From a virus (Duplodnaviria; Heunggongvirae; Uroviricota; Caudoviricetes): DNA of 64,000 nt. The position numbers and the translations under genes were made by a program. The DNA is taken from IMG/VR virus record IMGVR_UViG_3300038393_001148, one strand, 5' to 3'. Under the pieces are notes generated by a model. The model saw nothing but the letters and a program-made list of their open reading frames with translations, did no database searches and was not told the DNA's origin. Shown here piece after piece: positions 19,008-32,549 of this stretch. Numbering within the stretch: the first letter of the stretch is position 1; every line of letters starts with the position of its first letter.

Positions 19008-19081
19008 GCCCTGGTAGCTCAGTTGGATAGAGCAGCAGACTTCTAATCTGCCGGTCACTGGTTCGAGTCCAGTTCAGGGCG
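19008..19081 (+). tRNA. tRNA-Arg(TCT)
   Basis: Full cloverleaf, loop CTTCTAA. Confidence 0.92.
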
Positions 19082-19110
19082 TTGACGGGCGAATATTCTC
19101 GTGATATAGT
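19082..19110 (+). promoter_or_regulatory. SigA-like promoter
   Basis: TTGACG-N17-TATAGT. Confidence 0.75.
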
Positions 19111-19118
19111 CCGTCGAG

Positions 19119-19254
19119 ACATAGACAGTAGCCCAATGGGCCACTGGCGCAGCCGTCAATACGGCAGAAGGTGGCGTGGATCCAGGCATATATACCCTGG
19201 CTCTGCACGGCATCGAGTTGCTAAAGGGTCGCACCCGAGGCAGTGTGTCTATGT
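19119..19254 (+). ncRNA. Unclassified structured RNA A (136 nt)
   Basis: Closing stem ACATAGACA/TGTCTATGT, internal hairpins, own promoter. Confidence 0.6.
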
Positions 19255-19262
19255 AAGTCTTA

Positions 19263-19344
19263 GGCGGGATAGCGAAGCGGTCAAACGCAGCGGACTGTAA
19301 ATCCGTCCTCTCCGAGTTCGAAGGTTCGAATCCTTCTCCCGCCA
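19263..19344 (+). tRNA. tRNA-Tyr(GTA)
   Basis: Cloverleaf with long variable arm, loop CTGTAAA. Confidence 0.92.
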
Positions 19345-19348
19345 CTTT

Positions 19349-19608
19349 AAGCGAAGTCATACGGCGTGCCCCAAAGATGTTATTAGACGTGGCCCTATAC
19401 GGGCGAAGGACTGGGTGACTACCTTCACATTGAGTAAGGATACCCACGACCGAAAGGTAAGCGCTCTCGTCCCTGGCTCTCAACCAGGAGATTATCGGGA
19501 GTATTCAGTGGTGAAATTGGTATACACGCCAGCCCTATAAGCTGGTGCCTACGGGCGTACGGGTTCGAATCCCGTCTGAATGCAGCTAACGAACGTATGA
19601 CTTCGCTT
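19349..19608 (+). ncRNA. 260-nt structured RNA enclosing a tRNA-Leu-like body with a TAT anticodon (19501-19584)
   Basis: Perfect 15-bp closing stem AAGCGAAGTCATACG/CGTATGACTTCGCTT; embedded cloverleaf with loop CCTATAA. Confidence 0.65.
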
Positions 19609-19661
19609 TATCTTGCAAGAGGCTGGGAGCTTGCCTAGCGTGTTCACGGAAAAGCTCCAAT

Positions 19662-19747
19662 GCGGTTGTGGCGGAATGGTAGACGCGCTTGGTTGAGGGC
19701 CAAGTGGGATTTATAGTCCCGTGGAAGTTCGAATCTTCTCAACCGCA
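19662..19747 (+). tRNA. tRNA-Leu(GAG)
   Basis: Cloverleaf, long V arm, loop TTGAGGG. Confidence 0.92.
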
Positions 19748-19759
19748 CTTATAGTCTTA

Positions 19760-19834
19760 GGAAGTGGCGTGAACGCACGGGGAAGTAAGGGCGAGCAGTG
19801 GGCTCGTACCTGCTTTTACACAAAGAACGCTTCC
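19760..19834 (+). ncRNA. Small structured RNA candidate
   Basis: Ends GGAAG..GCGT/ACGCTTCC pair; nested hairpin GCGAGC/GCTCGT. Confidence 0.35.
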
Positions 19835-19839
19835 GCTCT

Positions 19840-19921
19840 GCGCCCTTGGTGGAATTGGCAGACACGTCAGGTTTAGGTCCTGATGCCGCGAGGTGTGAAG
19901 GTTCGAGTCCTTCAGGGCGTA
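19840..19921 (+). tRNA. tRNA-Leu(TAG)
   Basis: Cloverleaf, loop TTTAGGT. Confidence 0.92.
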
Positions 19922-19923
19922 CT

Positions 19924-20099
19924 AGGTCAAGGACGGTTAAATTCCGCCCAGCAGCATGCGCTGGGATAAGAAGTGACTACCTTAGTTCTCTACTGACAAC
20001 GTTTGCTACGTCTAGGAATATGCGTTAGGGCCAGAGGGTTAGGCAAGCCCGCCCGTTAACGTGAGAGCAGAGAAACAGAGCTTCCCATATACTTGACCT
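19924..20099 (+). ncRNA. Unclassified structured RNA C (176 nt)
   Basis: Closing stem AGGTCAAG/CTTGACCT begins 2 nt after tRNA-Leu; hairpin CCCAGC/GCTGGG. Confidence 0.5.
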
Positions 20100-20106
20100 T
20101 ACTCTT

Positions 20107-20225
20107 GTCGTCCTGCCCAATACATGGGCCGGTGTGAAGCGCGACCGATGTAGTGGACCTGCGCGTAGGTATACATGCGCGCATAACAATTCTTACTAGG
20201 TCAAACAGGGCGTGGCAGTGACGAC
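20107..20225 (+). ncRNA. Unclassified structured RNA D (119 nt)
   Basis: Closing stem GTCGTC-CTGCC/GGCAG-T-GACGAC; internal GCCC/GGGC and GCGCG hairpins. Confidence 0.45.
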
Positions 20226-20472
20226 TGTTGGAGGCAACTCTACGGATAAGGGTGTCCCGTTGTTTAGCGATGATATCTGACCGGACCGGGCCACATTGGC
20301 ATATATAACCAATGTGGCATCTTCTGCTGATTAGAATTCAGCCGGGAAAGTTGAACTAGAGCCTAACTCCGATACATATCCCCCGAGGGTGCAGTTGCGC
20401 GGTATCCCTTTCGGCCCACCTCTTCTGTGGAACCCCCGTGCCACATAAAACAAAGACCGGGAAAGATTTATT

Positions 20473-20548
20473 GGGCGAATGGTGTTAATGGCTAACATGG
20501 GAGTCTCCAAAACTCTTGCTCTAGGTTCGAATCCTAGTTCGCCCGCCA
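20473..20548 (+). tRNA. tRNA-Trp(CCA)
   Basis: Cloverleaf, loop CTCCAAA; the only tRNA here with an encoded 3' CCA. Confidence 0.92.
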
Positions 20549-20622
20549 CGGGGAGTGGCGCAGTCTGGTAGCGCGCTTGCTTTGGGAGCAAGATGTCGCA
20601 GGTTCGAATCCTGTCTCCCCGA
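20549..20622 (+). tRNA. tRNA-Pro(TGG)
   Basis: Cloverleaf, loop TTTGGGA. Confidence 0.93.
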
Positions 20623-20624
20623 CT

Positions 20625-21008
20625 ATGAGTAACGTAATCAAGTACAAGGGAAATGATCGAGTTAAGGTCATAGTCGATATCGACCGATATCAGCTAGACG
20701 GAACGCTAGATAGCGTAGTCGGCTATCTTGCGGGTCTAGGCGTAGGCCTTGAGGATCCTACCCTCGATCTCTCTGTACACGAGGGACCCTACTACGATCC
20801 TATCGTAGTTGAGTTTACGCTGACGGGTTATCGTGAGCCAACTGAGGAAGAACTTACGGCTCACGAGAAGAAGAAGGTTCGTGACGCCGAAGCAGCCAAG
20901 AAGCGAGCAGAGAAGGAGAAGGCGGAACGTGTTGTAAAGCGTCAGAAGGACGCTGAGAAGGCACTCAAACTCGCCAGGAAGGAATTTCCGGAGCTATTCA
21001 AGGAATAG
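20625..21008 (+). CDS. Hypothetical protein with a basic coiled-coil tail
   Basis: ATG 2 nt after tRNA-Pro; no SD. Confidence 0.7.
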   Translation: MSNVIKYKGNDRVKVIVDIDRYQLDGTLDSVVGYLAGLGVGLEDPTLDLSVHEGPYYDPIVVEFTLTGYREPTEEELTAHEKKKVRDAEAAKKRAEKEKAERVVKRQKDAEKALKLARKEFPELFKE

Positions 21009-21017
21009 CTCCATTTA

Positions 21018-21090
<73 letters not shown>

Positions 21091-21116
21091 CTTGACGTGT
21101 GCGCCTGTAAGTCAAT

Positions 21117-21240
21117 ACATACAGGCATTGTCTAAACGTTACTGTTGGGCGGGAACCCAACAGAGCGGTCCCAAGGATGTAATTCCCTTGGAAGCGTGTT
21201 ACGTGACAAGAGGCGCACCTTGGAGGCGGTGCCTGTATGT
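21117..21240 (+). ncRNA. Unclassified structured RNA E (124 nt), related to RNA A
   Basis: 11-bp closing stem ACATACAGGCA/TGCCTGTATGT; hairpins CTGTTGGG/CCCAACAG and CCAAGG/CCTTGG. Confidence 0.6.
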
Positions 21241-21251
21241 CTCGTTCCCGA

Positions 21252-21323
21252 GCCCGGATAGCTGAGTGGTGTTAGCACCTGCCTTACAAGCAGGAGACGT
21301 AGGTTCGATTCCTACTCTGGGCA
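21252..21323 (+). tRNA. tRNA-Val(TAC)
   Basis: Cloverleaf, loop CTTACAA. Confidence 0.9.
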
Positions 21324-21324
21324 T

Positions 21325-21516
21325 ATGGCAAAGAAAAAGCAGGGATACGGAACCAAGTGCGATAAGTGCGAGGCCAAGCTCGGCGATGTCGAGATGAAGC
21401 GGGGCAAGCCGGTGCTGATTGATGGGAAACCGGTCAAGATCCCGATCTTCTCGTATGCCCGCGAAATCGGCGGAAAGTGCGAGACTCGCTGCCTCAAGCA
21501 CTTGACATCCAAGTGA
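21325..21516 (+). CDS. Small basic Cys-rich protein
   Basis: ATG 1 nt after tRNA-Val; CDKC...CETRC. Confidence 0.65.
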   Translation: MAKKKQGYGTKCDKCEAKLGDVEMKRGKPVLIDGKPVKIPIFSYAREIGGKCETRCLKHLTSK

Positions 21517-21535
21517 GCCTTGCTAGGCTACGCAT

Positions 21536-21757
21536 ATGAGTCATCCCGTGTTCATCTCTATCGGCCCCAAGAAGGTTGATACGGAGATCATCAAGAAGGC
21601 GATTAGCCTGAAGGAGAAGGATCTAGGTCGCCATCTCACTTCGACCGAGATTCTTCAGACGATGGGCGAGGTCTACGAGCCGGATGCGTCAAAGCGCACC
21701 TTCATCTCCTCCCGACCGCCCTCAAAGATGCCCAAGCTACACCTGCCGAGGTCTTAG
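21536..21757 (+). CDS. Hypothetical protein
   Basis: 73 aa ORF. Confidence 0.55.
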   Translation: MSHPVFISIGPKKVDTEIIKKAISLKEKDLGRHLTSTEILQTMGEVYEPDASKRTFISSRPPSKMPKLHLPRS

Positions 21758-22007
21758 TATGTGGAAAACTGTTTGGAATGTCATTTCGCTGCTCGCGTTC
21801 GCGCTGAGGTGGTGCGCGGACACGCTGGGCGAGGCCCAGTACTGGGCCTGGGAAAAGGCGGGCAGCCCTGGTGCCCAGGAATCATAACTCACTCTTCCGG
21901 ACCTACATGAGCCATCAGAAACGGGAGGATCTGTACACGTACTACAGATCATGGGGTCATAGTCGCCTCTTCTCCTGGTGGATGTCTCGCAGGTACGGAC
22001 AAGATTA

Positions 22008-22080
22008 GGGCCACTAACTCAGTTGGTAGAGTATTCGCTCGACACGCGAAAAGTCACTGGTTCGAGTCCAGTGTGGCCCA
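22008..22080 (+). tRNA. tRNA-Val(GAC), atypical C33
   Basis: Cloverleaf, loop TCGACAC. Confidence 0.8.
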
Positions 22081-22083
22081 CTA

Positions 22084-22186
22084 GGGAAGTCTATCTACAA
22101 CCGGTTGAACATATTCCTCCACTGGAAATAGTTACCGTGGTACGCCGCGAGGCGGTCAGACTGGAATCTGGCAGGTAGAACTTCCC
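22084..22186 (+). ncRNA. Structured RNA candidate (103 nt)
   Basis: Closing stem GGGAAGT/ACTTCCC, 3 nt after tRNA-Val. Confidence 0.45.
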
Positions 22187-22195
22187 AACCTTGTC

Positions 22196-22380
22196 ACAAT
22201 CACCATAACAAGCCCCAAAGGCGAGATGCATACTTTGTAAGGCCACATTGTGAGAGGCTAATGCAGACAAAGTATGCATCTCTGATCTTTGTACGGTCAA
22301 CATTAGTTGCGACGCTTCTTTGGAGCAAAGTTGTGTGTGGTGAGTACGCATAAGCGGTCAGGCGGGAACCTGGCGATTGT
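22196..22380 (+). ncRNA. Structured RNA candidate (185 nt)
   Basis: Closing stem ACAATCACCA/TGGCGATTGT (9 of 10 pairs); internal perfect 16-bp helix 22223-22238/22267-22282. Confidence 0.5.
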
Positions 22381-22387
22381 AGTACAT

Positions 22388-22935
22388 GGGGAGGACAGGC
22401 ATCGATTCGGTTCGACAACCTATCCACCTAGTTGTAGCGGTATGAGCACACCTACAGGCTCAAAGCCATAACTGGCGCTGATACTCATCAGTTCGCTCTC
22501 GCTGCCTAACCGGTAGCGAAAAAGCCGGGCCGCTGGAAGCCTGGGAACAGAACACCAGCGAGGTTAGAATCCTCCTGTGATCCGCAGAAGATCTAAGGTC
22601 CTCGACGCTGCCGCACTGGCGGCAGCGTAGGTGACTGAGCGCTCATAACGCTCGATTCGAATGGATAGCGACCAAGGTTTGGTGCCGACGCCTACTTTTA
22701 CCGGAGGGCCATCCTTGCAAGCAGAATTCTTCCGGTGTAGCCGGGAGTGGGTTGCTGAGACCTTAGGTAAATAGAATTCAGACAGTGCTAAGCGGACTCG
22801 CGATGTAAAGGCCCTTCCAGAAGGGAACGACCACCTCTCCGGCACGCACAGATAGCGAATTAGCACAGCAGTACAAGCTACTAGAAGACTAGAGATAGTG
22901 AACTGAAGACGAGGGTTCGAATCCCTCCCTCTCCA
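22388..22935 (+). ncRNA. ssrA: tmRNA, 548 nt, with an inserted domain
   Basis: Acceptor GGGGAGG/CCTCTCC-A with G3.U70, TPsiC arm, pk1, tag frame 22474-22509 (GADTHQFALAA*) after ATAACT. Confidence 0.93.
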
Positions 22936-22937
22936 CT

Positions 22938-23043
22938 TGGGATAGATGACACCGACTCCACGGTAGATAAGGGAGCACGGCTCTATGGCCGGTCAGGCAT
23001 TAGGTGATGCCGCACCTTTCGCAAACCCCGCCTCACTATCCCA
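22938..23043 (+). ncRNA. Structured RNA candidate (106 nt)
   Basis: Closing stem TGGGATAG/CTATCCCA, 2 nt after tmRNA. Confidence 0.5.
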
Positions 23044-23051
23044 TTCACTTG

Positions 23052-23267
23052 GAAGGACGGCCTGCGACACATTCTGTGGTTGAATTCCACAAGCGAAGTG
23101 TCGATACCCAGACCCGGCTTGAAAACCGGGAGCAAAGGCGGAAGACCCAGTGACAGAGCACCAGGCCTGCAACCTGGAGGTCGCCGGTTAGAGTCCGGCC
23201 GAGGGCTGGCCCTCGTAGCTCAGTGGTCCGTGACTAGCTGACTTTTATGCCCGACGAACGTCCTTCA
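23052..23267 (+). ncRNA. Structured RNA containing a circularly permuted tRNA-like domain
   Basis: Closing stem GAAGGACG/CGTCCTTC; order is D-3' strand, anticodon arm, T arm, acceptor hairpin, D-5' strand. Confidence 0.65.
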
Positions 23268-23283
23268 AATTTTGCCGCAGGAT

Positions 23284-23358
23284 GCCCGAATAGCTTCAAC
23301 TGGATAGAGCGCTTCCCTCGTAAGGAAGAGGTTATGGGTTCGAGTCCCATTTCGGGCT
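23284..23358 (+). tRNA. tRNA-Thr(CGT)
   Basis: Cloverleaf, loop CTCGTAA. Confidence 0.9.
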
Positions 23359-23373
23359 TACGCCCTACTGCTG

Positions 23374-23446
23374 GGCCCCATAGCTCAACGGTCAGAGCGC
23401 TTGTCTTATACGCAAGTGGTTCTAGGTTCGAATCCTAGTGGGGCTA
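23374..23446 (+). tRNA. tRNA-Ile(TAT)
   Basis: Cloverleaf, loop CTTATAC, acceptor GGCCCCA resembling Ile2. Confidence 0.85.
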
Positions 23447-23453
23447 CCTACTT

Positions 23454-23526
23454 GCCCTTATAGTGAAGATGGATATCACGAGTCCCTCCTAAGGACTAGT
23501 CACGGGTTCGAGTCCTGTTGAGGGCG
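23454..23526 (+). tRNA. tRNA-Arg(CCT)
   Basis: Cloverleaf, loop CTCCTAA. Confidence 0.9.
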
Positions 23527-23534
23527 CTAAATCT

Positions 23535-23902
23535 TAACGCAGCACGAATGGAAGCTAAGTTCCTCTTAGCAGGTGCAGGACTGCGAAGCATCGGACCTTG
23601 GAATCGATGTGGAGTCACTGTTTCTCAAAGTCTGGTTAGAATCCGGCTGCTTTGAAGGGAAGGTGAGTAGGCTCAAATACTCTCACTTTCCCGAAGGTGA
23701 TCTGTGACCATTAAAAGGTGAGCGGAATCCCAGATCGCATGCAATCTGTCCGCAAAGGAGTAGGGAGAGGTGAATAAAGGCGCTAGTAGGGTCGGTTTAC
23801 CGACTGCCGAACGGTCTTTACGACCCTGTAGTACTCGACCGAAACCCGGAATCCGAGCTAGGGAATTTGCTACTCCCTTGACTGACTCGGCGCGCTGCGT
23901 TA
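23535..23902 (+). ncRNA. Large unclassified structured RNA (368 nt)
   Basis: Closing stem TAACGCAGC/GCTGCGTTA; several long helices; T-loop-like hairpin; no convincing ORF. Confidence 0.6.
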
Positions 23903-23912
23903 CTCTTGCAAT

Positions 23913-24341
23913 ATGCTGCTACGACGCATTCATCGCAATGCGCTCTCGTGGGTCAACGAAGAGCGGGCCTTGGCTGGACTGGACCCGATAGGCGACTTCC
24001 CAACGGGATTTCGCGGGGGTGATGCCAACCCCATCACGAACGCCTTGGGATCTCATGAGCGCGAGGTCGCCCCGAAGTTAGACGAGGCCATAAAGGAAGC
24101 GGAGGCGGACCCGCTCGGAGCGGCGTTAGAGGCTGCGGTTATTCCTAGCCCCATGTCGGCCTTCTTTTGGTTTGCGCTCTTTACGGTTGGGTTCTATCCC
24201 AAGTACGACCAGGCCAAGATGTATGAGAGGCTTCCGCCAAAGCGCCGTGCCCTTGTAGCAAGGAGGCTGCGGAACCTACCAAGCGATGCGCGAGAGCGGT
24301 ATTACCGCGTAGAGCAAGTGGTAAAAATGCTGAAGGAATAA
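23913..24341 (+). CDS. Hypothetical protein
   Basis: 142 aa ORF ending at the 5' end of tRNA-Ser. Confidence 0.65.
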   Translation: MLLRRIHRNALSWVNEERALAGLDPIGDFPTGFRGGDANPITNALGSHEREVAPKLDEAIKEAEADPLGAALEAAVIPSPMSAFFWFALFTVGFYPKYDQAKMYERLPPKRRALVARRLRNLPSDARERYYRVEQVVKMLKE

Positions 24342-24427
24342 GGAGAGGTGCCTGAGTGGTCGAAAGGGCTCGCCTGCTAAGCGAGTGTAGTTAATACCTA
24401 CCAGGGGTTCGAATCCCCTTCTCTCCG
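24342..24427 (+). tRNA. tRNA-Ser(GCT)
   Basis: Cloverleaf, long V arm, loop CTGCTAA. Confidence 0.92.
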
Positions 24428-24428
24428 C

Positions 24429-24457
24429 TTGACACCTGAAACGAAGTACGATAGGCT
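24429..24457 (+). promoter_or_regulatory. SigA-like promoter, near-leaderless
   Basis: TTGACA-N17-TAGGCT, ATG 6 nt later. Confidence 0.7.
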
Positions 24458-24463
24458 GAAGAT

Positions 24464-24925
24464 ATGAAGCTCGGAGAAGCACTAACATTACGAAGCGACC
24501 TAGTGTCGCGCTTGGGTGAGGTACGCAACCGTATCTCTTCCAACGTCCTGGTCCAGGACCAGGAGCGGCCAGCGGAGGACCCGAACGCCCTCATCGAGGA
24601 GCACGGAAACCTCTGCGATGAGCTTGAGAGCTTGGTCACCAAGATCAACCTCACCAACTCCCAGACGCGCCTTCCCTCCGGGGAGACGCTGACGGAGGCC
24701 CTCGTCAAGCGAGACGTGTTCGCCCAGCGTCTCAACGGCCTGCGGCAGGCGGCGCAAGCTGCCGATGTCACCCACGCCCGTCGCTACTCCCTCTCGGAGA
24801 TCAAGATGGTTCCGACCATCAAGGTTGCCGATCTCAATGAGGAGATCGATGGCTTGGCGAAGCAGCGCCGTCAGCTTGACACGGCGATCCAGGCCCATAA
24901 CTGGACCACGGATCTAGTAGAGTAA
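24464..24925 (+). CDS. DIP1984 family protein
   Basis: MKLGEALTLRSDL...VQDQERPAEDP...TLTEALVKRD...RYSLSEIK...IQAHNWTTDL matches the family pattern as I recall it. Confidence 0.8.
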   Translation: MKLGEALTLRSDLVSRLGEVRNRISSNVLVQDQERPAEDPNALIEEHGNLCDELESLVTKINLTNSQTRLPSGETLTEALVKRDVFAQRLNGLRQAAQAADVTHARRYSLSEIKMVPTIKVADLNEEIDGLAKQRRQLDTAIQAHNWTTDLVE

Positions 24926-25158
24926 GTTAGTTGGTAGTCGTAAAGTAGCGAATGTCAGGGCTGACTATGCGCCTTAAGCTAGTCCCATCGGAGACCCGAA
25001 ATCTCGCCTCCCCGCTGCGCGAAGGGAATAAGTTACCGTTCCGCGCCAACCGGGTACAGATGATCGTCACCGTTCATAAGTTACTACCAGACATTGAACT
25101 TTGCGATGAGGGATGGCATTACCCTGTAGGTAATGCCGGGTTCGGGGACTTAACTTAC
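24922..25158 (+). ncRNA. Structured RNA overlapping the DIP1984 stop codon (237 nt)
   Basis: Closing stem GTAAGTTA/TAACTTAC; TGGTAGT/ACTACCA; AATGTC/GACATT; 9-bp hairpin GGCATTACC/GGTAATGCC. Confidence 0.55.
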
Positions 25159-25163
25159 AACGA

Positions 25164-25237
25164 CGCGGGATAGTGGAAGCATGGCGCCACGCTAGCCTCA
25201 TAAGCTAGAGATCTGGGTTCGAATCCCGGTCCCGCTA
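25164..25237 (+). tRNA. tRNA-Met(CAT), initiator-like acceptor
   Basis: Cloverleaf, loop CTCATAA, C1:U72 mismatch, no 3GC anticodon stem. Confidence 0.85.
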
Positions 25238-25238
25238 C

Positions 25239-25311
25239 GCCTTCTTAACTCAATTGGCAGAGTAACTGACTCTTAATCAGGAGGTTCTGGGTTCGAGTCC
25301 CAGAGAAGGCA
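25239..25311 (+). tRNA. tRNA-Lys(CTT)
   Basis: Cloverleaf, loop CTCTTAA. Confidence 0.9.
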
Positions 25312-25313
25312 CT

Positions 25314-25485
25314 TAGACGGTACGAAAGAGTTGCCCGTTACAAAACGGCTGGAAACAACGGGACATCCAACCTCAGAGCGGTTAGAATCCGCCATTCTAG
25401 GGCTTAGCGGCCCTACGTGCCTTAGCGGGCATAAGAATAAGGGAAATCGAGAGGTGCGAGCCGAAACACCCTCGCGCACCGTCTA
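25314..25485 (+). ncRNA. Structured RNA candidate (172 nt)
   Basis: Closing stem TAGACGGT/ACCGTCTA, 2 nt after tRNA-Lys; GCGG-TTAGAAT-CCGC and TAGGGC/GCCCTA hairpins. Confidence 0.55.
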
Positions 25486-25549
25486 TCTATAATAACTTCG
25501 GAGCCGAGATCGAAGCGGCCAACTCTGACCCGGAGTCTAAATGGGTAAT

Positions 25550-25623
25550 GGGTGATTAGCTCAGTTGGTGAGAGCGCTCGTCTGATAAGCGAGAGGTCCC
25601 TGGTTCAAGTCCAGGATTGCCCA
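25550..25623 (+). tRNA. tRNA-Ile(GAT)
   Basis: Cloverleaf, loop CTGATAA. Confidence 0.93.
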
Positions 25624-25625
25624 CT

Positions 25626-25720
25626 AGAGGACCGGTCGATGGATAAGTTCGAACTATTCCATCCCTCAGACACAAGCGGCCATGCTGTTGTCTGCGTATG
25701 AACTGGCGACCGCATCCTCT
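25626..25720 (+). ncRNA. Structured RNA candidate (95 nt)
   Basis: AGAGGA-CGGTCG/CGACCG-TCCTCT closing helix, 2 nt after tRNA-Ile; two internal hairpins. Confidence 0.5.
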
Positions 25721-25728
25721 TAATCTAC

Positions 25729-25901
25729 TGATCCCATGGGTCAGCCTGTTCTCGCCAGGGAAATTGCCTACAACTGTGTGGCGATATGTTTGTAGGAAGC
25801 CGCCCTCCCACGCCAGGGGCCAGAATAGCGGCAGCGAGAAACTTAACTCACCAAGCCCAACCTCTATTGGTAAGAATAGAGTAGTATCCCTTACCGGATC
25901 A
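25729..25901 (+). ncRNA. Structured RNA candidate (173 nt)
   Basis: TGATCC/GGATCA ends; TTCTCGC/GCGAGAA internal helix. Confidence 0.4.
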
Positions 25902-25966
25902 ATGCGAAAATCCTCCATGTTGGCATGGTCGCGGGAGCAAGGATTGGAATCCGAGGCTCCCACCAA

Positions 25967-26038
25967 TGGTGGGTGCTCGATAGGCAAGAGAACGGACTGT
26001 TAATCCGCTGCATGTGGGTTCGAATCCCACCCCACCAG
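25967..26038 (+). tRNA. tRNA-Asn(GTT)
   Basis: Cloverleaf with short D stem, loop CTGTTAA. Confidence 0.8.
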
Positions 26039-26046
26039 CTAATGGT

Positions 26047-26124
26047 TTCACAGTTGTCAGCACAGGTTGACTCCCTGTCAGGAGAAATTTGGCCCTCCGT
26101 CTGACTCAAAGACCTGACTGTGAA
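26047..26124 (+). ncRNA. Small structured RNA candidate (78 nt)
   Basis: TTCACAGT/ACTGTGAA closing stem. Confidence 0.35.
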
Positions 26125-26194
26125 CTTATCTCATAGATATTCGGTAATCTGACAAGGAGGTAGTGGTTAAGTTCGAACTGTAGCGAAGTAACTT

Positions 26195-26266
26195 GGCGGG
26201 GTGGCGGAATGGCTTACGCACGGGTCTGCAAAACCTGTTATACGGGTTCGATTCCCGTCCTCGCCT
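26195..26266 (+). tRNA. tRNA-Cys(GCA)
   Basis: Cloverleaf, loop CTGCAAA, U73. Confidence 0.9.
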
Positions 26267-26268
26267 CT

Positions 26269-26460
26269 ATGCAGTTGCTTACTATCGAAGAATTTCATGC
26301 ACTACCCGAAGGTACCGAGCTAATCTCAATTCTTGATGAGGTCAAGATCAAGGGCAGGGATTATATCGATCTTGACACCCGCGCCGGGTTGATAGCTTGG
26401 TATGTTCGAAAGCTACCTGAGCCTACGCTTGCGGACAGTGAATGGATCGATAATAGTTGA
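26269..26460 (+). CDS. Hypothetical protein (63 aa)
   Basis: ATG 2 nt after tRNA-Cys. Confidence 0.6.
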   Translation: MQLLTIEEFHALPEGTELISILDEVKIKGRDYIDLDTRAGLIAWYVRKLPEPTLADSEWIDNS

Positions 26461-26463
26461 CTT

Positions 26464-26550
26464 GGAGGGTTGGCAGAGTCCGGTTTAATGCAACGGTCTT
26501 GAAAACCGTCAGGTGTCACAGCCTCCTGGGTTCGAATCCCAGACCCTCCG
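26464..26550 (+). tRNA. tRNA-Ser(TGA)
   Basis: Cloverleaf, long V arm, loop CTTGAAA. Confidence 0.92.
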
Positions 26551-26553
26551 CTT

Positions 26554-26674
26554 GGGGCGAATGGTAAGGTAGCCCGTCAATTCGTGGCGTCCGGTGTCGT
26601 TCGAGCCGACGTTAAACATATGGATGCAAATAGGGTAGTTCCCGCCTACTTGGGTTCGAATCCCAAGCGCCCCA
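26554..26674 (+). ncRNA. tRNA-like RNA with an expanded anticodon arm (121 nt)
   Basis: GGGGCG/CGCCCC-A acceptor, TTGGG-TTCGAAT-CCCAA T arm, GCGTCC/GGATGC stem with a 29-nt loop. Confidence 0.55.
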
Positions 26675-26707
26675 TCTGCGGAGTCAAGGTTCCGTACCTT
26701 AATATGT

Positions 26708-27253
26708 ATGAACCTCCGCTGGGCCGCTTTCCTTGATGCGCTAGAAATTATCGTTCGGTACAGTTCGGTTCTCCTTGCTGTAGGATTATTGACCTGGGCC
26801 GTTTCTTCTATCACGGTTAACAAGAAGACACAAGAGATAAATCGCATTGTTCGCACTATCCAGGAAGCCAAGCGTGGACCTCGGGGTGAACGTGGTCCGT
26901 CTGGACCTCAAGGATTGCGAGGCCGCGAAGGTGCGGTTGGACCGAGAGGCGTTCAGGGTCGGACGGGCGCTAGCGGCCCTAGAGGACAGAGGGGTCCACA
27001 GGGCGCACAGGGCCAGCGAGGTGCCGAAGGGCTTCGGGGACCCCAGGGTGTACAGGGCGCTACAGGAAAAACTGGAGCAACTGGTCCCGAAGGCCCTCGC
27101 GGTGAGCGAGGCCCAACTGGCGCTCAAGGAGCTACGGGGCTACGCGGCCCTCAAGGAATCCCTGGAGTCCAGGGCCCGTTGGGACCTGAAGGGCCGATTG
27201 GCCCACGAGGACCAATCGGTTCGGTCACTTGTCAGGTTTTACAAAGCTGCTGA
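26708..27253 (+). CDS. Membrane-anchored collagen-like protein
   Basis: N-terminal TM helix followed by about 38 Gly-X-Y triplets. Confidence 0.85.
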   Translation: MNLRWAAFLDALEIIVRYSSVLLAVGLLTWAVSSITVNKKTQEINRIVRTIQEAKRGPRGERGPSGPQGLRGREGAVGPRGVQGRTGASGPRGQRGPQGAQGQRGAEGLRGPQGVQGATGKTGATGPEGPRGERGPTGAQGATGLRGPQGIPGVQGPLGPEGPIGPRGPIGSVTCQVLQSC

Positions 27254-27303
27254 AGGCGGTGTAGTAAAGCTGGAGTTAAGTGGATGGATTATCCAACGCT
27301 GAG

Positions 27304-27376
27304 GGCAACTTAGCTCAGTTGGTAGAGCGGCAGACTGAAAATTTGCGCGTCACTGGTTCGAGTCCAGTAGTTGCCA
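27304..27376 (+). tRNA. tRNA-Phe(GAA)
   Basis: Cloverleaf, loop CTGAAAA. Confidence 0.92.
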
Positions 27377-27389
27377 TCGACTTACACAT

Positions 27390-27462
27390 GCCGGGTTGGT
27401 CTAGCGGTTAGGACGCCTGTCTTTCACACAGGAAATCACGGGTTCGAACCCCGTACCCGGTA
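27390..27462 (+). tRNA. tRNA-Glu(TTC)
   Basis: Cloverleaf, loop CTTTCAC. Confidence 0.92.
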
Positions 27463-27564
27463 CTTACTCCCAACAGTGAAAGTCGCCTTGCCCGGCTTGT
27501 CCTAGGAAAGCTCCGGGCGAACAAGAAGTAGCAAAGCCCTGATTGTGGGCAGTTTCCGATCTAC

Positions 27565-27649
27565 GCCGAAGTGACGGAACCGGTAGACGTAGCGGACTCA
27601 AAATCCGCCGCCCCATAAAGGCGTGAGGGTTCGAGTCCCTCCTTCGGCA
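27565..27649 (+). tRNA. tRNA-Leu(CAA)
   Basis: Cloverleaf, loop CTCAAAA. Confidence 0.92.
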
Positions 27650-27664
27650 TTGAGTAGAACCCAC

Positions 27665-27736
27665 TGCGGAGTGGTGTAATTGGCAACACATGGGTTTCTG
27701 GTACCTAGATTCGGGGTTCAAGTCCCTGCTCCGCAT
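27665..27736 (+). tRNA. tRNA-Gln(CTG)
   Basis: Cloverleaf, loop TTCTGGT. Confidence 0.88.
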
Positions 27737-27745
27737 TATTGATTT

Positions 27746-27829
27746 GGCGGCGTGCTGGAATTGGAGATACAGGGCAAGCTTAAACCTTGCTGCCTTCGGG
27801 GATTGTGGGTTCGAGTCCCACCGCCGCTA
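27746..27829 (+). tRNA. tRNA-Leu(TAA)
   Basis: Cloverleaf, loop CTTAAAC. Confidence 0.9.
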
Positions 27830-27891
27830 CTGTGAGATACGGGGTGAGCCCGCCTGCGCGATGAGCGTAAAGAGGAGGAAGATATTGTGTG

Positions 27892-27964
27892 GGTCCGGTA
27901 GCTCAGGGGAAGAGCGCCAGCCGTTATAAGCTGGAAGTCGTTGGTTCGAATCCAACCTGGATCA
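27892..27964 (+). tRNA. tRNA with an 8-nt anticodon loop (CGTTATAA; Ile(TAT)-like)
   Basis: Acceptor GGTCCGG/CTGGATC, D arm, CCAGC/GCTGG stem, canonical T arm. Confidence 0.7.
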
Positions 27965-28022
27965 CGGTCTACTCGACCTTAAGGAGTGGCACATCATCCG
28001 AATCCCATGAACGTATCTTGTC

Positions 28023-28051
28023 TTGACTGTCCGTAGATGGACTGGTATCAT
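28023..28051 (+). promoter_or_regulatory. SigA-like promoter
   Basis: TTGACT-N17-TATCAT, ATG 6 nt later. Confidence 0.7.
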
Positions 28052-28057
28052 GGATCT

Positions 28058-28207
28058 ATGACTCAATATTACGTAGGAGCGGTTATCGGGGCCATCCTAG
28101 CCGTCATCGGTTACCTCGGCCCCGAGGATGGAGGGACGCTAGAGCTTATTGGCCTTGCGATTCTCGCTGTTGCCCTCTATAAGCTTTTCGACCTGAACTG
28201 GTTCTGA
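28058..28207 (+). CDS. Small two-TM membrane protein (49 aa)
   Basis: Manual translation MTQYYVGAVIGAILAVIGYLGPEDGGTLELIGLAILAVALYKLFDLNWF. Confidence 0.65.
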   Translation: MTQYYVGAVIGAILAVIGYLGPEDGGTLELIGLAILAVALYKLFDLNWF

Positions 28208-28208
28208 G

Positions 28209-28601
28209 ATGGCCTTCAAGTTCTGCAACACAGAAACCCTGATCCGGCTCAATAACGAGTGCATCGATAATCCTCACTGCAATCGAGCTATTGATGAGAA
28301 GGCCTATGAGTTGCTTGACCCTGAGGGCACGCACCTTTTTGACTCGTCGCACATCGTCTTCCGGATGGCCGGTCATGGATTCGTCCGCCCGATGGTCAGC
28401 ATGAAGATGAAGGACACTATGGAGCCGGTGCAGGTCACCATGGATCTCTCCGATGAACAGTGGAATTCCCTTCGTACGTTCACGAAGGAGATGGACGATA
28501 TGTTGAAGTCGGGCAAGGAATGTGTGGACTGTGGATACGTCCGCCCGCACCAACCCGGCGACTACATTTGTCTGATCTGTAGGACCAGCGGTAAGAAGTA
28601 A
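28209..28601 (+). CDS. Protein with C-terminal DYxC Zn-ribbon tag (member 1)
   Basis: CVDC-x9-DYICLICR. Confidence 0.75.
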   Translation: MAFKFCNTETLIRLNNECIDNPHCNRAIDEKAYELLDPEGTHLFDSSHIVFRMAGHGFVRPMVSMKMKDTMEPVQVTMDLSDEQWNSLRTFTKEMDDMLKSGKECVDCGYVRPHQPGDYICLICRTSGKK

Positions 28602-28606
28602 ATAGT

Positions 28607-28680
28607 GTGGGGATAGCATAATTGGTTAATGCCCTTGGTTGTGGACCAAGACAATGTGGGTTCGAGTCCCACTCCTCACC
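28607..28680 (+). tRNA. tRNA-His(GTG)
   Basis: Cloverleaf, loop TTGTGGA, C73; T rather than G at -1. Confidence 0.9.
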
Positions 28681-28686
28681 CCTCAA

Positions 28687-28759
28687 GCCTCCGTAACTCA
28701 ATTGGCAGAGTGGCTGACTTTTAATCAGAACGTTGCAGGTTCGAGTCCTGCCGGGGGCA
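28687..28759 (+). tRNA. tRNA-Lys(TTT)
   Basis: Cloverleaf, loop CTTTTAA. Confidence 0.92.
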
Positions 28760-28761
28760 CT

Positions 28762-29109
28762 ATGTTCCAGGTTGGTGATGTACTCAAATATGCCAAATCT
28801 GAACTTGACCCTCCGATGATTTGCCAGCACGGAGAATACGTTGGCACAGTGCTGGCTATCGAGGAGGGTGGCCGGATGCGTGTTATGTGGCACTGGGATC
28901 CCGTAGAATATTGTCGCATCCATGGTTCCTCGATCTCTCGGATCCAAGAAACTTGGAAAGGGCAGTCGGGGGTTAGGGGTTATTGTGCCTCGGTTTCGGC
29001 CTTCTTTTATTTCTCCAATGATTGCGCAGTATGCGGCAGGACGATTGGGCACGTTTTGGATTACATCTGTAGTGAATGTCGTAACATGGCCGATTCGTCC
29101 AGTGGTTAG
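28762..29109 (+). CDS. Zn-ribbon tag protein (member 2)
   Basis: ATG 2 nt after tRNA-Lys; CAVC-x8-DYICSECR; stop codon lies inside tRNA-Glu. Confidence 0.7.
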   Translation: MFQVGDVLKYAKSELDPPMICQHGEYVGTVLAIEEGGRMRVMWHWDPVEYCRIHGSSISRIQETWKGQSGVRGYCASVSAFFYFSNDCAVCGRTIGHVLDYICSECRNMADSSSG

Positions 29110-29159
29110 GACGCCAGCCTCTCACGTTGGAAACACGGGTTCGAATCCCGTATCGGCTA
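29088..29159 (+). tRNA. tRNA-Glu(CTC)
   Basis: Cloverleaf, loop CTCTCAC. Confidence 0.92.
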
Positions 29160-29197
29160 CTCTTGATCCATTCTCCCGCGTTTGGTAGTATCTTCTC

Positions 29198-29533
29198 ATG
29201 AGAGTCCGCGCTGTATACACCCTCAAGTCCTTTGCCGAACTAAAGGATGCTCTTGAGTACGCCAAGAGCATCAAGGCGGGAGCGGGAAGCCATGCGGACG
29301 CTGAGCTAGAGATTGAGTTCGATAAGAAATCAAAGAAGCTCGGATCCCTCGGCGGCAAAGGACTCACAGCGATCTTGCCCACCTCACCTCCAGAGGAAGA
29401 GGAGTCAGCGCTTCCCTGGAAGGTGGTCGTGGTCAACGAGGATCCGGTGCCCGGAGGAAGTCCCTGCGCCGAGTGTGACCAGCCCCATTTCGAGGAAGAC
29501 TTCCTCTGCTCTGATTGTCGAGCCGCCGCATGA
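29198..29533 (+). CDS. Zn-ribbon tag protein (member 3)
   Basis: CAEC-x7-DFLCSDCR. Confidence 0.75.
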   Translation: MRVRAVYTLKSFAELKDALEYAKSIKAGAGSHADAELEIEFDKKSKKLGSLGGKGLTAILPTSPPEEEESALPWKVVVVNEDPVPGGSPCAECDQPHFEEDFLCSDCRAAA

Positions 29534-29820
29534 TCTTCTACAAGACCCGTACGGTGCAAAAGGGTAAAGAGCTTCACGACATCGAAGCTGTGAAGAAACG
29601 TTTGAAGGAAATTCACGACCATCCTAAGTCGGCTTATCACAAGGCGCTCAAGGAAAATCGTATTATGGTGTGCTACGACCAGAATCGCGCCACGCGGGGC
29701 AAATATGACATCATCGAATTCACCGAGGTCGAGCCTCCGGGCTCCTCGGTTTGCGGAGGTTGTCAGAAGAGGTTCTTTAGCCTAGAAGAAGACTATCTAT
29801 GTCCGAAGTGCCGCTCCTGA
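29530..29820 (+). CDS. Zn-ribbon tag protein (member 4)
   Basis: CGGC-x9-DYLCPKCR; ATGA overlap with member 3. Confidence 0.75.
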   Translation: MIFYKTRTVQKGKELHDIEAVKKRLKEIHDHPKSAYHKALKENRIMVCYDQNRATRGKYDIIEFTEVEPPGSSVCGGCQKRFFSLEEDYLCPKCRS

Positions 29821-30071
29821 ATCCAGAACTCCTGCGCCCCGGATTGGTTATGAAGGATTCTCGATGGACTGATTGGTACACCGTTGCCGAAGTCCATGGG
29901 CGCGAATTCATCTTTGATGGCTATCCCAATGCAGTGTATGATTTCTTTAGTCCGATAAGCGGTGGTACTTGGGTTATTCCTAACGCTAGTTGGTGTGCAT
30001 CTTGCGAAGAACCCGCACTAATAAATGACTACCTATGCCATCATTGTAGAAAGGAGGAGAATAATGGCTAG
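29799..30071 (+). CDS. Zn-ribbon tag protein (member 5)
   Basis: CASC-x7-DYLCHHCR. Confidence 0.7.
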   Translation: MSEVPLLNPELLRPGLVMKDSRWTDWYTVAEVHGREFIFDGYPNAVYDFFSPISGGTWVIPNASWCASCEEPALINDYLCHHCRKEENNG

Positions 30072-30711
30072 CCGCGCCCGTAGCGTCTCAATTAACGACC
30101 AGACTTTGTGGTTCGACATGAAGCTGGCTCATCTCAAGGCCACCGACAAGCAGATAGAGCTTTTGGCGACTATCGAAGATCTTGAGATGGATGATCTGCT
30201 AGAGTCGAACGTGACGCAGGGCGACGTGCTCAAGCGCCTCCGCGAGGCATTAGGCCAGGCTCCAATCCCTCCAGATGTTCTGCTCAAGAGGCAGAAGTGG
30301 AGACGGGAACGTCAGACGCAGCCGCCCTGCCGTCTCTGCCACAAGATTGGCGACAGTACACGTCACCACTTCGTGAATAAGTGGATTCTGAAGGAATTGT
30401 CAGGATACGGGCGCGAGTGGTCTAACAGACAAGAGAACTGTATTCCACTGTGTATTGATTGCCACCGGGATCTGCACGATAGAAGCGGCCCGTCGAAATC
30501 AATTGCGCATGTCCTCACGGCGCGCGAGAAGGATTTCGCCAATCGCGCTATCGAACGGCTCTCGGAAGAGCGTCCTAAGCTTCTTATCCTCATTGCCAAG
30601 GGTTCCGATACGGTATATGAGGCTCGACTGATCAAAGACTGGTTCGAAGGTCTGTTCGAGGTGGAAGCTGCTGAACTCGCTGAGGATGAGCCTCTCGCGG
30701 CGGTTGCGTAA
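30064..30711 (+). CDS. HNH-like endonuclease domain protein
   Basis: CRLC...RHH...NCIPLCIDCHRDLH. Confidence 0.7.
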   Translation: MASRARSVSINDQTLWFDMKLAHLKATDKQIELLATIEDLEMDDLLESNVTQGDVLKRLREALGQAPIPPDVLLKRQKWRRERQTQPPCRLCHKIGDSTRHHFVNKWILKELSGYGREWSNRQENCIPLCIDCHRDLHDRSGPSKSIAHVLTAREKDFANRAIERLSEERPKLLILIAKGSDTVYEARLIKDWFEGLFEVEAAELAEDEPLAAVA

Positions 30712-30725
30712 AGGCCGCCACACTT

Positions 30726-30798
30726 GCGCCTGTAGCTCAGTGGATAGAGCGCATCCCTGCGGAGGATGAGGTCACTGGTTCAAATCCAGTCAGGCGCG
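30726..30798 (+). tRNA. tRNA-Arg(GCG)
   Basis: Cloverleaf, loop CTGCGGA. Confidence 0.88.
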
Positions 30799-30800
30799 CT

Positions 30801-31103
30801 ATGGCCGAATGTGCTAATTGTGAAATGCGGCAGGCCCCGGAGGAAGATTTCCTCTGCCAATCCTGTCGGGACTGGGAGAACGGGGAGATCAGCTTGGAGA
30901 GTATCTTCGTCGCCGAGTCTCATGATAAATTTGCTCCACCAGAGGCCGCCATGGAGATGGCGAGATGCGATAACGTCGTTTACTTCACGATGTGCAAGTA
31001 CGAGGAAGGTACTTTCCACCGCAAGGCTGATGTCAAGGCTACGTTCTCCATGGACATCAAGACGTTGCTCAAGGCCCTTCGAGCATTGGATGTGGTAGAG
31101 TAA
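30801..31103 (+). CDS. Zn-ribbon tag protein (member 6, N-terminal tag)
   Basis: ATG 2 nt after tRNA-Arg; CANC-x8-DFLCQSCR. Confidence 0.75.
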   Translation: MAECANCEMRQAPEEDFLCQSCRDWENGEISLESIFVAESHDKFAPPEAAMEMARCDNVVYFTMCKYEEGTFHRKADVKATFSMDIKTLLKALRALDVVE

Positions 31104-31107
31104 ACTC

Positions 31108-31302
31108 ATGGCTCCTAAGAAGAAAGCGGCCTTCGTGCCGCAAGAAAAAGATGATGGCACTCGTTGGCGCGTCATGCGCTACACTGAGAAGGGTGTCACT
31201 GAGGTCTACCCGGCACGGTCGGGCCTCATGAAGCGCGAGGCTCAGCGACTAGCCGAAGGATTGGCGCTAGGGGGAGCCTTCATCGAGCAGGTCGAAGAAT
31301 AA
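31108..31302 (+). CDS. Hypothetical protein
   Basis: 64 aa ORF. Confidence 0.6.
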   Translation: MAPKKKAAFVPQEKDDGTRWRVMRYTEKGVTEVYPARSGLMKREAQRLAEGLALGGAFIEQVEE

Positions 31303-31304
31303 CT

Positions 31305-31378
31305 GCCCTTGTCGCCTAACGGATATGGCACTTGACTTCGGATCAAGAATAATGCGGGTTCGAATCCTGCCGGGGGCG
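31305..31378 (+). tRNA. tRNA-Arg(TCG)
   Basis: Cloverleaf, loop CTTCGGA. Confidence 0.88.
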
Positions 31379-31386
31379 CTCGTCTA

Positions 31387-32469
31387 ATGGACAACAATAT
31401 GCTGATCACACAACAGGAGCACAACGCCTACTCCTATCCGGCTCAGAGGTTTAATGAGACGGTAGAAGAGCTAAACCTCCCGCATCAGAGATACGCTCAG
31501 TGGAGCACTGATGCAGAAAACGCCGATCTTCAGGTGTATGTGGAGAGAGGCTTTTCGAGTCGTTACAACGACGACAATAGTCTCTACGTTGCCTTTACGG
31601 AGAGCGATAGCAAGGCTGCGGGTTGGATCCAGCTTCAAAGCGGTTTGGTATACGTCACCGTTGCGGCGCAAACGGCTGAGCGAGCGGAGTCCCTGCTAGC
31701 GGACATTGAGAATGTCATTCCTCGCTCCGAGGAGACGGACACGGAGTCCGAGGTTTCCATCGGCTTTTGGTCGCTCGGTCCGCAAGGTCCGAGCCGCATG
31801 AACCGGCGTATTGCGGTCCCAGTTTGGGACGAGATCAAGAATAATTACACCAAGGATGTCAAGGAGTCGCTTGAGTCCTTGATGGAGATTAAGAGCGGCA
31901 AGGATCTTGGCGACGGTCAGCTTATTCTCTGGCAGGGAGAGCCCGGCACGGGCAAGACCTATGCCCTGAGATCGCTAGCCTCGGCATGGCACAAGTGGTG
32001 TGAGTTTCATTACATCACCGATCCAGAGCAGTTCTTTGGAAGTCATTCCAACTACATGTTGAATGTCATCCTCCACGACAGCAACCCATATGGGGTGGAG
32101 GAGGAGCCAAGGTGGAAACTCCTCATTCTGGAGGATTCCGGCGAGCTATTGCGCGCCGATGCCAAGCAGGTCGTCGGTCAGGCGCTTTCTCGCTTGCTCA
32201 ACACGGTTGATGGTCTGATCGGTCAGGGCCTCCGTCTCTTGGTTCTCGTCACCACTAACGAGGAGATGGAAAAGCTCCATCCCGCTGTGTCCCGTCATGG
32301 GCGCTGCCTCCAGCAGGCAGAGTTTGGCCCCTTGACAAGGGACGAGGTTCGCGCTTGGATGGACGAGAATGACATCGAAGGCGATGTCGTCCCGATGTCG
32401 GCAGCTAACCTCTACGCCTTGAAGAACGGCAAGAAGGCTGAGGAAAAGCGCCTCGTAGGCTTCCACTAG
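31387..32469 (+). CDS. AAA+ ATPase (DUF5925-like N-terminus)
   Basis: GEPGTGKT, LILED, RLLNTVDGLIGQG, TTNE and PAVSRHGRC motifs. Confidence 0.85.
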   Translation: MDNNMLITQQEHNAYSYPAQRFNETVEELNLPHQRYAQWSTDAENADLQVYVERGFSSRYNDDNSLYVAFTESDSKAAGWIQLQSGLVYVTVAAQTAERAESLLADIENVIPRSEETDTESEVSIGFWSLGPQGPSRMNRRIAVPVWDEIKNNYTKDVKESLESLMEIKSGKDLGDGQLILWQGEPGTGKTYALRSLASAWHKWCEFHYITDPEQFFGSHSNYMLNVILHDSNPYGVEEEPRWKLLILEDSGELLRADAKQVVGQALSRLLNTVDGLIGQGLRLLVLVTTNEEMEKLHPAVSRHGRCLQQAEFGPLTRDEVRAWMDENDIEGDVVPMSAANLYALKNGKKAEEKRLVGFH

Positions 32470-32475
32470 CAGTTT

Positions 32476-32549
32476 GCGGCTGTAGCTCAGTTGGCTAGAG
32501 CGTCTCCTTGCCATGGAGAAGGTCGAGGGTTCGAATCCCTTCAGCCGCT
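32476..32549 (+). tRNA. tRNA-Gly(GCC)
   Basis: Cloverleaf, loop TTGCCAT. Confidence 0.93.

What the first reader, a model, noticed from the sequence alone, without database searches (positions are those of the whole stretch)
23535..23902. 368-nt ornate RNA with no recognisable family
Seen: closing stem TAACGCAGC/GCTGCGTTA; long helices GGGAAGGTGAG/CTCACTTTCCC, GATCTG/CAGATC, GGAGTAG/CTACTCC and GGGTCG/CGACCC; a T-loop hairpin; no credible ORF. It is the size of a ribozyme or scaffold RNA, but I see no RNase P, tmRNA or group I signatures.
Basis: partly seen in the sequence, partly recalled or inferred. Interest (0 to 1): 0.7.

Follow-up and report, generated by a model that had tools for sequence, protein, structure and literature searches.

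The report
New self-pairing structured phage RNA
A soil phage's tRNA gene cluster encodes a conserved, intricately folded 370-base non-coding RNA that matches no catalogued RNA family and seems built to pair with a second copy of itself, like the RNA-only assemblies recently seen by cryo-EM.

Summary
The RNA is real and belongs to an undescribed family. It lies just after tRNA-Arg(CCU) in the 39-tRNA array of a large uncultured soil phage. I found six homologs (43-62% identical) in related phages, all in the Arg(CCU)-Ser(GCU) slot. Covariation is strong: 91.6% of cells pair on a sequence-only alignment, against 77% shuffled (0/500). The conserved fold has a closing stem, a four-way junction, a K-turn arm, a T-loop hairpin stacked into a 12-bp tRNA-top-half-like helix, and a long-range pseudoknot. 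One hairpin loop is a six-base palindrome in all 7 copies, as five different palindromes, the signature of an intermolecular kissing loop. Rfam gives no hit; a real GOLLD control scores 197 bits and has other motifs and topology; the phage's RNase P and tmRNA lie elsewhere. No homolog turned up in IMG/VR or GTDB, and the scan has no look-alike on other DNA. Best reading: a homodimerising scaffold or decoy RNA, functionally akin to OLE, ARRPOF, GOLLD and ROOL. Expression, dimerisation and function are untested.

The parts
23454..23527 (+). tRNA-Arg(CCU), no encoded CCA; directly upstream in all 5 homologs whose 5' side is seen
23535..23902 (+). The non-coding RNA (368 nt)
23535..23546 (+). P1 5' strand (pairs with 23891-23902): closing stem P1a plus 2-bp P1b
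   Evidence: P1a 35/35 cells, P1b 10/10
23561..23572 (+). P2a (23561-64 with 23716-19) and P2b (23565-72 with 23647-54); P2b is 8 bp with tandem U-U in the window
   Evidence: P2a 22/24; P2b 38/48, 6/8 pairs with two-sided change
23575..23621 (+). P3 arm with a kink-turn (C-stem 23579-81/23614-16, 3-nt bulge, tandem G-A/A-G)
   Evidence: G-A at the first position in 6/6, A-G at the second in 4/6; flanking stems 18/18, 18/18, 15/15; motif identity from established K-turn consensus
23632..23646 (+). P4 T-loop hairpin (4 bp, 7-nt loop), stacked on P2b: 12 bp in all, the length of a tRNA acceptor plus T stem
   Evidence: 23/24, 3/4 pairs two-sided; stacking inferred
23657..23692 (+). P5 helix with the most conserved loop L5 (23671-79)
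23674..23678 (+). Pseudoknot PK2 5' strand (pairs with 23865-23869 in loop L10)
   Evidence: 28/30 cells, 3/5 pairs two-sided; only such helix among single-stranded segments, 1.5% of shuffles
23629..23631 (+). Tentative pseudoknot PK1 (with 23671-73); a further tentative PK3 joins 23549-52 with 23701-04
   Evidence: 18/18 and 18/20 cells, but 3-bp helices are not above chance
23696..23709 (+). P6, 3-bp hairpin
   Evidence: 16/18
23722..23753 (+). P7 hairpin with palindromic loop (palindrome 23737-23742), predicted intermolecular kissing site
   Evidence: stems 21/21 and 34/35; palindrome in 7/7, five different hexamers; background 3.2% per 8-mer
23763..23840 (+). P8, long variable arm with a covarying 2-bp base
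23841..23852 (+). Conserved 12-nt A-rich joiner J8/9
23853..23890 (+). P9 and inner hairpin P10 with a 9-nt loop that holds the PK2 3' strand
   Evidence: P9 23/24, P10 27/30, all pairs two-sided
23878..23906 (+). Sigma-A-type promoter (-35 at 23878-83, -10 at 23901-06) overlapping the RNA's 3' end, 6 nt before the next ATG
   Evidence: pattern in 5/5 copies followed by the ORF, 0/2 without; function inferred
23913..24341 (+). 142-aa all-helical protein of unknown family, probably from a leaderless mRNA; possible partner

Best explanation
A phage-encoded, trans-acting structural RNA of a new family. Shown by comparison: it folds into a closed, pseudoknotted multi-domain structure with a K-turn, a T-loop on a 12-bp tRNA-top-half-like helix and a self-complementary loop. 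Inferred: it is co-transcribed with the tRNAs and its 5' end is freed when the CCA-less tRNA-Arg is cut at its 3' end; two copies pair through the palindromic L7 loop, as OLE L9.3 and GOLLD L21a do. Inferred, weakest step: the dimer works as a scaffold or decoy that displays the elbow-like T-loop and the K-turn to host or phage RNA-binding proteins (tRNA-processing, RNA-repair or tRNA-attacking proteins) during infection. It is an accessory gene. My odds: real structured RNA 0.95; homodimer through L7 0.75; protein-binding scaffold or decoy 0.45.
For: Six homologs, each recovered by an HMM built without it (E 4e-8 to 8e-50). Sequence-only alignment: 91.6% of cells paired, 22/44 pairs with two-sided change, 0/500 shuffles, slid controls 35-42%. 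Hand alignment: 402/426 cells, 45/72 pairs two-sided. Palindrome in 7/7 with five distinct hexamers, all three self-pairs covarying; background 3.2% per 8-mer. The same kind of palindrome switching marks cryo-EM-proven intermolecular bridges in OLE and GOLLD (10.1101/2024.12.08.627333). P1 starts 0-2 nt after the ARAGORN tRNA end in four homologs and 7 nt after it in the window; none of these tRNAs encodes CCA. Related arrays carry Ro60/TROVE, RtcB and PTH2 genes. All carriers in the tree fall in one clade (98/99) that also holds two phages without the RNA in this slot.
Against: No transcript, structure probing or binding data. Only seven sequences, all from one clade, and the helices were chosen on these same sequences, so the counts lean towards the structure. 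No docking partner for the T-loop could be found by covariation. A single kissing loop is one contact, whereas the known RNA-only assemblies have several. No protein partner is identified.
Confidence: 0.45

Rival explanations
1. A dedicated ribonucleoprotein or toxin-antitoxin-like pair with the downstream 142-aa protein.
For: The ORF follows the RNA directly in 5 of 7 loci, and within the fetched tRNA arrays it occurs only behind the RNA; it has basic ends and a confident helical fold (pLDDT 86).
Against: L082 and L090 have the RNA with no ORF in the locus; L147 has the ORF among protein genes with no RNA. The ORF has its own predicted promoter. Shared ancestry of a cassette explains the linkage. 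No fold match above Z 3.8.
Confidence: 0.17
2. A new ribozyme (self-cleaving, or acting on tRNA precursors) whose core is the pseudoknotted junction around L5.
For: Invariant unpaired residues cluster in L5, the junction after P5, the strand before P7 and J8/9; a long-range pseudoknot ties the halves together; it abuts a tRNA 3' end, as phage theta ribozymes do (own knowledge).
Against: No signature of any known ribozyme. P1 pairs with the RNA's far 3' end, unlike the HDV-like fold. The phage has a separate RNase P RNA. Relatives place other spacers, or none, after the same tRNA.
Confidence: 0.12
3. A cis-acting processing spacer or decayed insert with no role once released; the palindrome and promoter are DNA-level signals.
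For: Many spacers in this array are stem-closed; the 3' conservation partly reflects a promoter; L082 has lost the 3' strands of P9 and P10; two clade members lack the RNA.
Against: Covariation through the whole 370 nt at about 50% identity; a DNA-binding site would keep its sequence rather than switch among five palindromes; K-turn and T-loop are RNA tertiary motifs.
Confidence: 0.1
4. A far-diverged member of a known family (GOLLD 3' domain, ROOL, RNase P, Ms1/6S, group II intron domain I).
For: Size equals the 375-nt GOLLD 3' domain, which also sits in tRNA arrays and has a self-kissing loop (PMC12990946).
Against: No Rfam hit at E<=10 for the window or L148 and only a chance MEG3 hit for L082. 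A true GOLLD scores 196.7 bits, has different conserved motifs and a chain of separate domains, and is matched by this family's models only at tRNA T-arms.
Confidence: 0.05

Closest known systems
GOLLD RNA (Rfam RF02032), 3' domain
   Same: Large ornate ncRNA in phage and plasmid tRNA arrays; similar size; a symmetric kissing loop with palindrome switching
   Different: No model match either way; different motifs; GOLLD is a chain of domains of 700-830 nt with 7-18 contacts per chain, while this RNA is closed by one stem and shows one predicted contact
ROOL RNA (Rfam RF03087)
   Same: Ornate RNA near tRNA genes in phages and plasmids; self-assembles
   Different: About 570 positions; no Rfam hit; no positive control was run
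OLE RNA and ARRPOF RNA
   Same: Homodimers; OLE has a palindromic kissing loop (L9.3) and a protein-binding kink-turn
   Different: OLE is a ~600-nt chromosomal Firmicute RNA with Oap proteins; ARRPOF is a 255-nt Fusobacterium plasmid RNA; no Rfam hit to either
Y-RNA-like tRNA mimics (YrlA, RF02553) and the tmRNA tRNA-like domain
   Same: Closing stem plus a T-arm stacked on an acceptor-like helix; relatives encode Ro60 and RtcB
   Different: Three times larger than YrlA, no D-arm, the 12-bp helix ends in a four-way junction; the weak YrlA hit in this window is to another element (23151-23270)
T4 species 1/2 and T5 stable RNAs of phage tRNA clusters (own knowledge; lead from earlier scan notes)
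   Same: Non-tRNA stable RNAs processed from phage tRNA transcripts, function unknown
   Different: No similarity to any cultured phage in blastn; much smaller (T4) or larger (T5)

Membership tests
GOLLD (RF02032) | Covariance-model match (gathering 150 bits) | tested here: not met
   No hit at E<=10 in three members; positive control 196.7 bits
GOLLD (RF02032) | Conserved 3'-domain motifs and P14-P27 topology | tested here: not met
   Consensus shown differs; family HMM and CM match the GOLLD locus only at tRNA T-arms
GOLLD (RF02032) | Location in a tRNA array of a phage or plasmid | tested here: met
GOLLD/ROOL/OLE-type assemblies | Covarying self-complementary loop | tested here: met
   7/7 palindromes, five different
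GOLLD/ROOL/OLE-type assemblies | Multimer in solution | not testable with these tools
   needs mass photometry or cryo-EM
ROOL (RF03087) | Covariance-model match and ~570-nt length | tested here: not met
   length 360-387 nt; no positive control available
Bacterial RNase P RNA (RF00010/RF00011) | CR-I and CR-V motifs forming P4 | tested here: not met
   Absent in all seven; the same search finds the phage's RNase P at 32766-33261
tmRNA (RF00023) | tRNA-like ends with CCA and a tag reading frame | tested here: not met
   the phage's tmRNA is at 22388-22938
Group I intron | P3-P7 core with R/S sequences, interrupting a host gene | tested here: not met
   No model hit, no S motif; flanking genes are intact
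Group II intron / HYER | Catalytic domain V and GUGYG 5' end | tested here: not met
   (5' motif in 1/7, no domain V pattern); no Rfam hit
SRP RNA, 6S, Ms1, raiA, OLE, ARRPOF | Rfam model match | tested here: not met
   SRP motif absent
YrlA-type Y RNA (RF02553) | tRNA-like module with both D and T arms on a Ro60-binding stem | tested here: not met
   T-arm present, no D-arm, no model hit over this RNA
YrlA-type Y RNA (RF02553) | Binding to Ro60 | not testable with these tools
   TROVE gene seen only in L111, which lacks this RNA in the fetched locus
Kink-turn motif | C-stem, 3-nt bulge, tandem G-A/A-G, NC-stem | tested here: met
   bulge is 4 nt in two members, second pair non-standard in two

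The most novel reading that the evidence does not exclude
The RNA is the founding member of a new class of catalytic or RNA-only-assembling phage RNA: either a new ribozyme fold acting on tRNA precursors, or a dimeric particle that presents two tRNA-elbow mimics to neutralise a host tRNA-targeting defence.
Probability: 0.15. Interest if true: 0.88.

Novelty: new variant of a known kind. Interest (0 to 1): 0.62.

Why it matters
Large ornate RNAs are rare, and the few known ones (GOLLD, ROOL, OLE, ARRPOF) turned out to form RNA-only multimers of unknown purpose. This adds a compact, unrelated family with a covariation-backed fold and an explicit, easily mutated dimer interface, which makes it a ready cryo-EM and biochemistry target. 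It also shows a soil phage clade carrying tRNAs, tmRNA, RNase P and further custom RNAs together, which bears on why phages keep non-tRNA RNAs in tRNA clusters. The limits are a small family, an uncultured phage and no function.

Tried and rejected
Rfam at gathering and E<=10: nothing over this RNA. blastn against cultured phages: chance hits only. No whole genome held. Sequencing-run search: no RNA holder listed, which says nothing about expression. RNR-linked IMG/VR loci and 35 whole virus or plasmid records: no homolog by nhmmer, blastn or CM. Pattern scans of IMG/VR and GTDB: only chance matches; these exact patterns miss diverged members (the first would have missed L148). RNAalifold on the MAFFT alignment recovered only P4, P7, P9 and part of P10. 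Single-sequence MFE folds are misleading: the nested part of the comparative model scores -108.9 against -131.1 kcal/mol, pseudoknots not counted. An unrestricted scan shows that one covarying 5-bp helix can arise by chance (mean 0.86 per column shuffle), so PK2 rests on the restricted test; PK1 and PK3 are not above chance. The first test of the GATCTG helix was off by one base and was redone. Resemblance to group IIC intron domain I (recalled from memory) was dropped: order differs and there is no domain V. No covarying partner for the T-loop. Downstream protein: no Pfam, atlas or PDB fold match; absence of a match is not evidence of a new fold. Literature searches found no description of this RNA.

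Full report
Context. The window is part of a large uncultured soil phage (a 165-kb contig carries one of its proteins; holders are soil and rhizosphere metagenomes). Its terminase is about 29% identical to those of Bxz1-like mycobacteriophages, which suggests, but does not show, an actinobacterial host. Positions 19008-36144 hold 39 tRNA genes, a tmRNA at 22388-22938 and an RNase P RNA at 32766-33261. The finding lies between tRNA-Arg(CCU) (23454-23527) and a 142-aa ORF (23913-24341).

Observation. The region folds better than shuffles (z -2.65), but so does the other strand. The sequence is reproduced without differences by contigs of other runs. Rfam gives nothing over it at E<=10.

Homologs. 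Using a neighbouring conserved protein as bait I fetched related tRNA arrays; nhmmer found the RNA in L082, L083, L084 and L090. Homologs of the downstream ORF led to L148 and the 3' half in L146. Every copy lies just before tRNA-Ser(GCU) or the ORF that precedes it, and directly after tRNA-Arg(CCU) in the five whose 5' side is seen. Pairwise identity is 43-62%, and each member is found by an HMM built from the others. Nine other arrays have something else, or nothing, in this slot. On a marker-protein tree the five carriers that have the marker fall in one clade (98/99) that also holds L034 and L143, which lack the RNA there; L143 has a 74-nt stem-closed element with a P5-like loop, possibly a remnant. 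No copy was found in IMG/VR, GTDB or cultured phages.

Structure. On the sequence-only MAFFT alignment, 44 pairs give 91.6% paired cells and 22 pairs with two-sided change, against 77.3% and 10.1 in shuffles (0/500) and 35-42% when slid. A hand alignment of 72 pairs gives 402/426 cells and 45 two-sided pairs; it is fitted, so it leans towards the model. P1 closes the molecule. P2a closes a four-way junction of P2b, P5 and P6. P2b leads to a three-way junction with P3, which holds a kink-turn in all six members, and P4, a T-loop hairpin that continues P2b without a gap, 4 + 8 = 12 bp, the length of a tRNA acceptor plus T stem (established knowledge; stacking inferred). The L5 loop is the most conserved segment; its 3' half pairs with loop L10 near the 3' end (PK2, 28/30 cells; the only such helix among single-stranded segments, 1.5% of shuffles). 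PK1 and PK3 are compatible but not above chance. P7, P8 and P9/P10 follow, with a conserved 12-nt joiner.

The palindrome. The loop of P7 holds a six-base palindrome in all seven members: GCATGC, GGTACC (three times), TGCGCA, GCTAGC and ATGCAT. Only 3.2% of 8-mers in the array contain one. Adjacent loop bases cannot pair with each other within one loop, so this switching points to pairing between two molecules; the same pattern marks proven bridges in OLE and GOLLD (10.1101/2024.12.08.627333), and palindromic pairing dimerises HYER1 and HYER5 (PMC12990946).

Ends and neighbour. P1 begins within 0-7 nt of a CCA-less tRNA, so tRNA 3' processing would free the 5' end (inference). The 3' end overlaps a sigma-A-type promoter whose -10 box lies 6-7 nt before the next ATG in all five copies followed by the ORF and in neither of the two without it; the ORF is therefore probably a separate leaderless transcript, and part of the 3' sequence conservation is promoter. 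The protein is all-helical (pLDDT 86) with no family or fold match. It is found only behind the RNA in arrays, but the RNA occurs without it and it occurs without the RNA in L147.

Comparison with known RNAs. It is not GOLLD: a true GOLLD scores 196.7 bits with different motifs and topology, and this family's models do not match it. It lacks RNase P, tmRNA, SRP, group I and group II signatures, and two homologs also have no meaningful Rfam hit. It works like the self-assembling ornate RNAs in place, size and interface, but is a member of none. I found no paper describing it. The scan's earlier notes list analogous RNAs in other phages' tRNA arrays, but no look-alike sequence.

Verdict. A real, clade-limited, accessory structured RNA of a new family, very probably a homodimer, most plausibly a scaffold or decoy for RNA-binding proteins; a dedicated partnership with the downstream protein or a new ribozyme are not excluded. 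Expression and function are untested. Interest 0.62.

Noticed in passing
window 22388-22938: Expanded tmRNA (551 nt) below Rfam's gathering score and missed by ARAGORN; probable tag ADTHQFALAA
   Followed up: partly
window 32766-33261: Phage-encoded class A RNase P RNA of about 500 nt, scoring only 25 bits, with intact CR-I and CR-V motifs; relatives have it too
   Followed up: partly
window 23144-23267: tRNA-Ala(UGC)-like cloverleaf in permuted order, opened at the D-loop, with a weak YrlA hit
   Followed up: no
window 22562, 23186, 23634, 25380: A T-loop variant with A at position 56 recurs in non-tRNA elements here and in relatives
   Followed up: partly
L143 5415-5488: 74-nt stem-closed element in the same slot with a P5-like loop and similar 3' end; possible collapsed remnant
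   Followed up: partly
L082 5761-5788: This homolog lacks the 3' strands of P9 and P10 but keeps the PK2 strand and P1; a natural deletion variant
   Followed up: partly
L034 17221-17640: Another ~420-nt ORF-free, hairpin-rich stretch before tRNA-Ser(UGA), unrelated to this RNA
   Followed up: no
L111 8347-9771; L114 12985-14295; L082 7391-7801: Ro60/TROVE, RtcB and PTH2 genes inside related tRNA arrays
   Followed up: no
window 24464-24925: DUF6847 (PF20935) gene after tRNA-Ser(GCU), preceded by a promoter-like TTGACA...TAGGCT
   Followed up: no
window 19083-19254: Promoter-like element ending just before a stem-closed ~135-nt spacer RNA; suggests some spacer RNAs have their own promoters
   Followed up: no
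window 30025-30711: 228-aa protein with HNH-like Cys/His motifs conserved across the phage clade, with no Pfam hit and no match in cultured phages
   Followed up: partly
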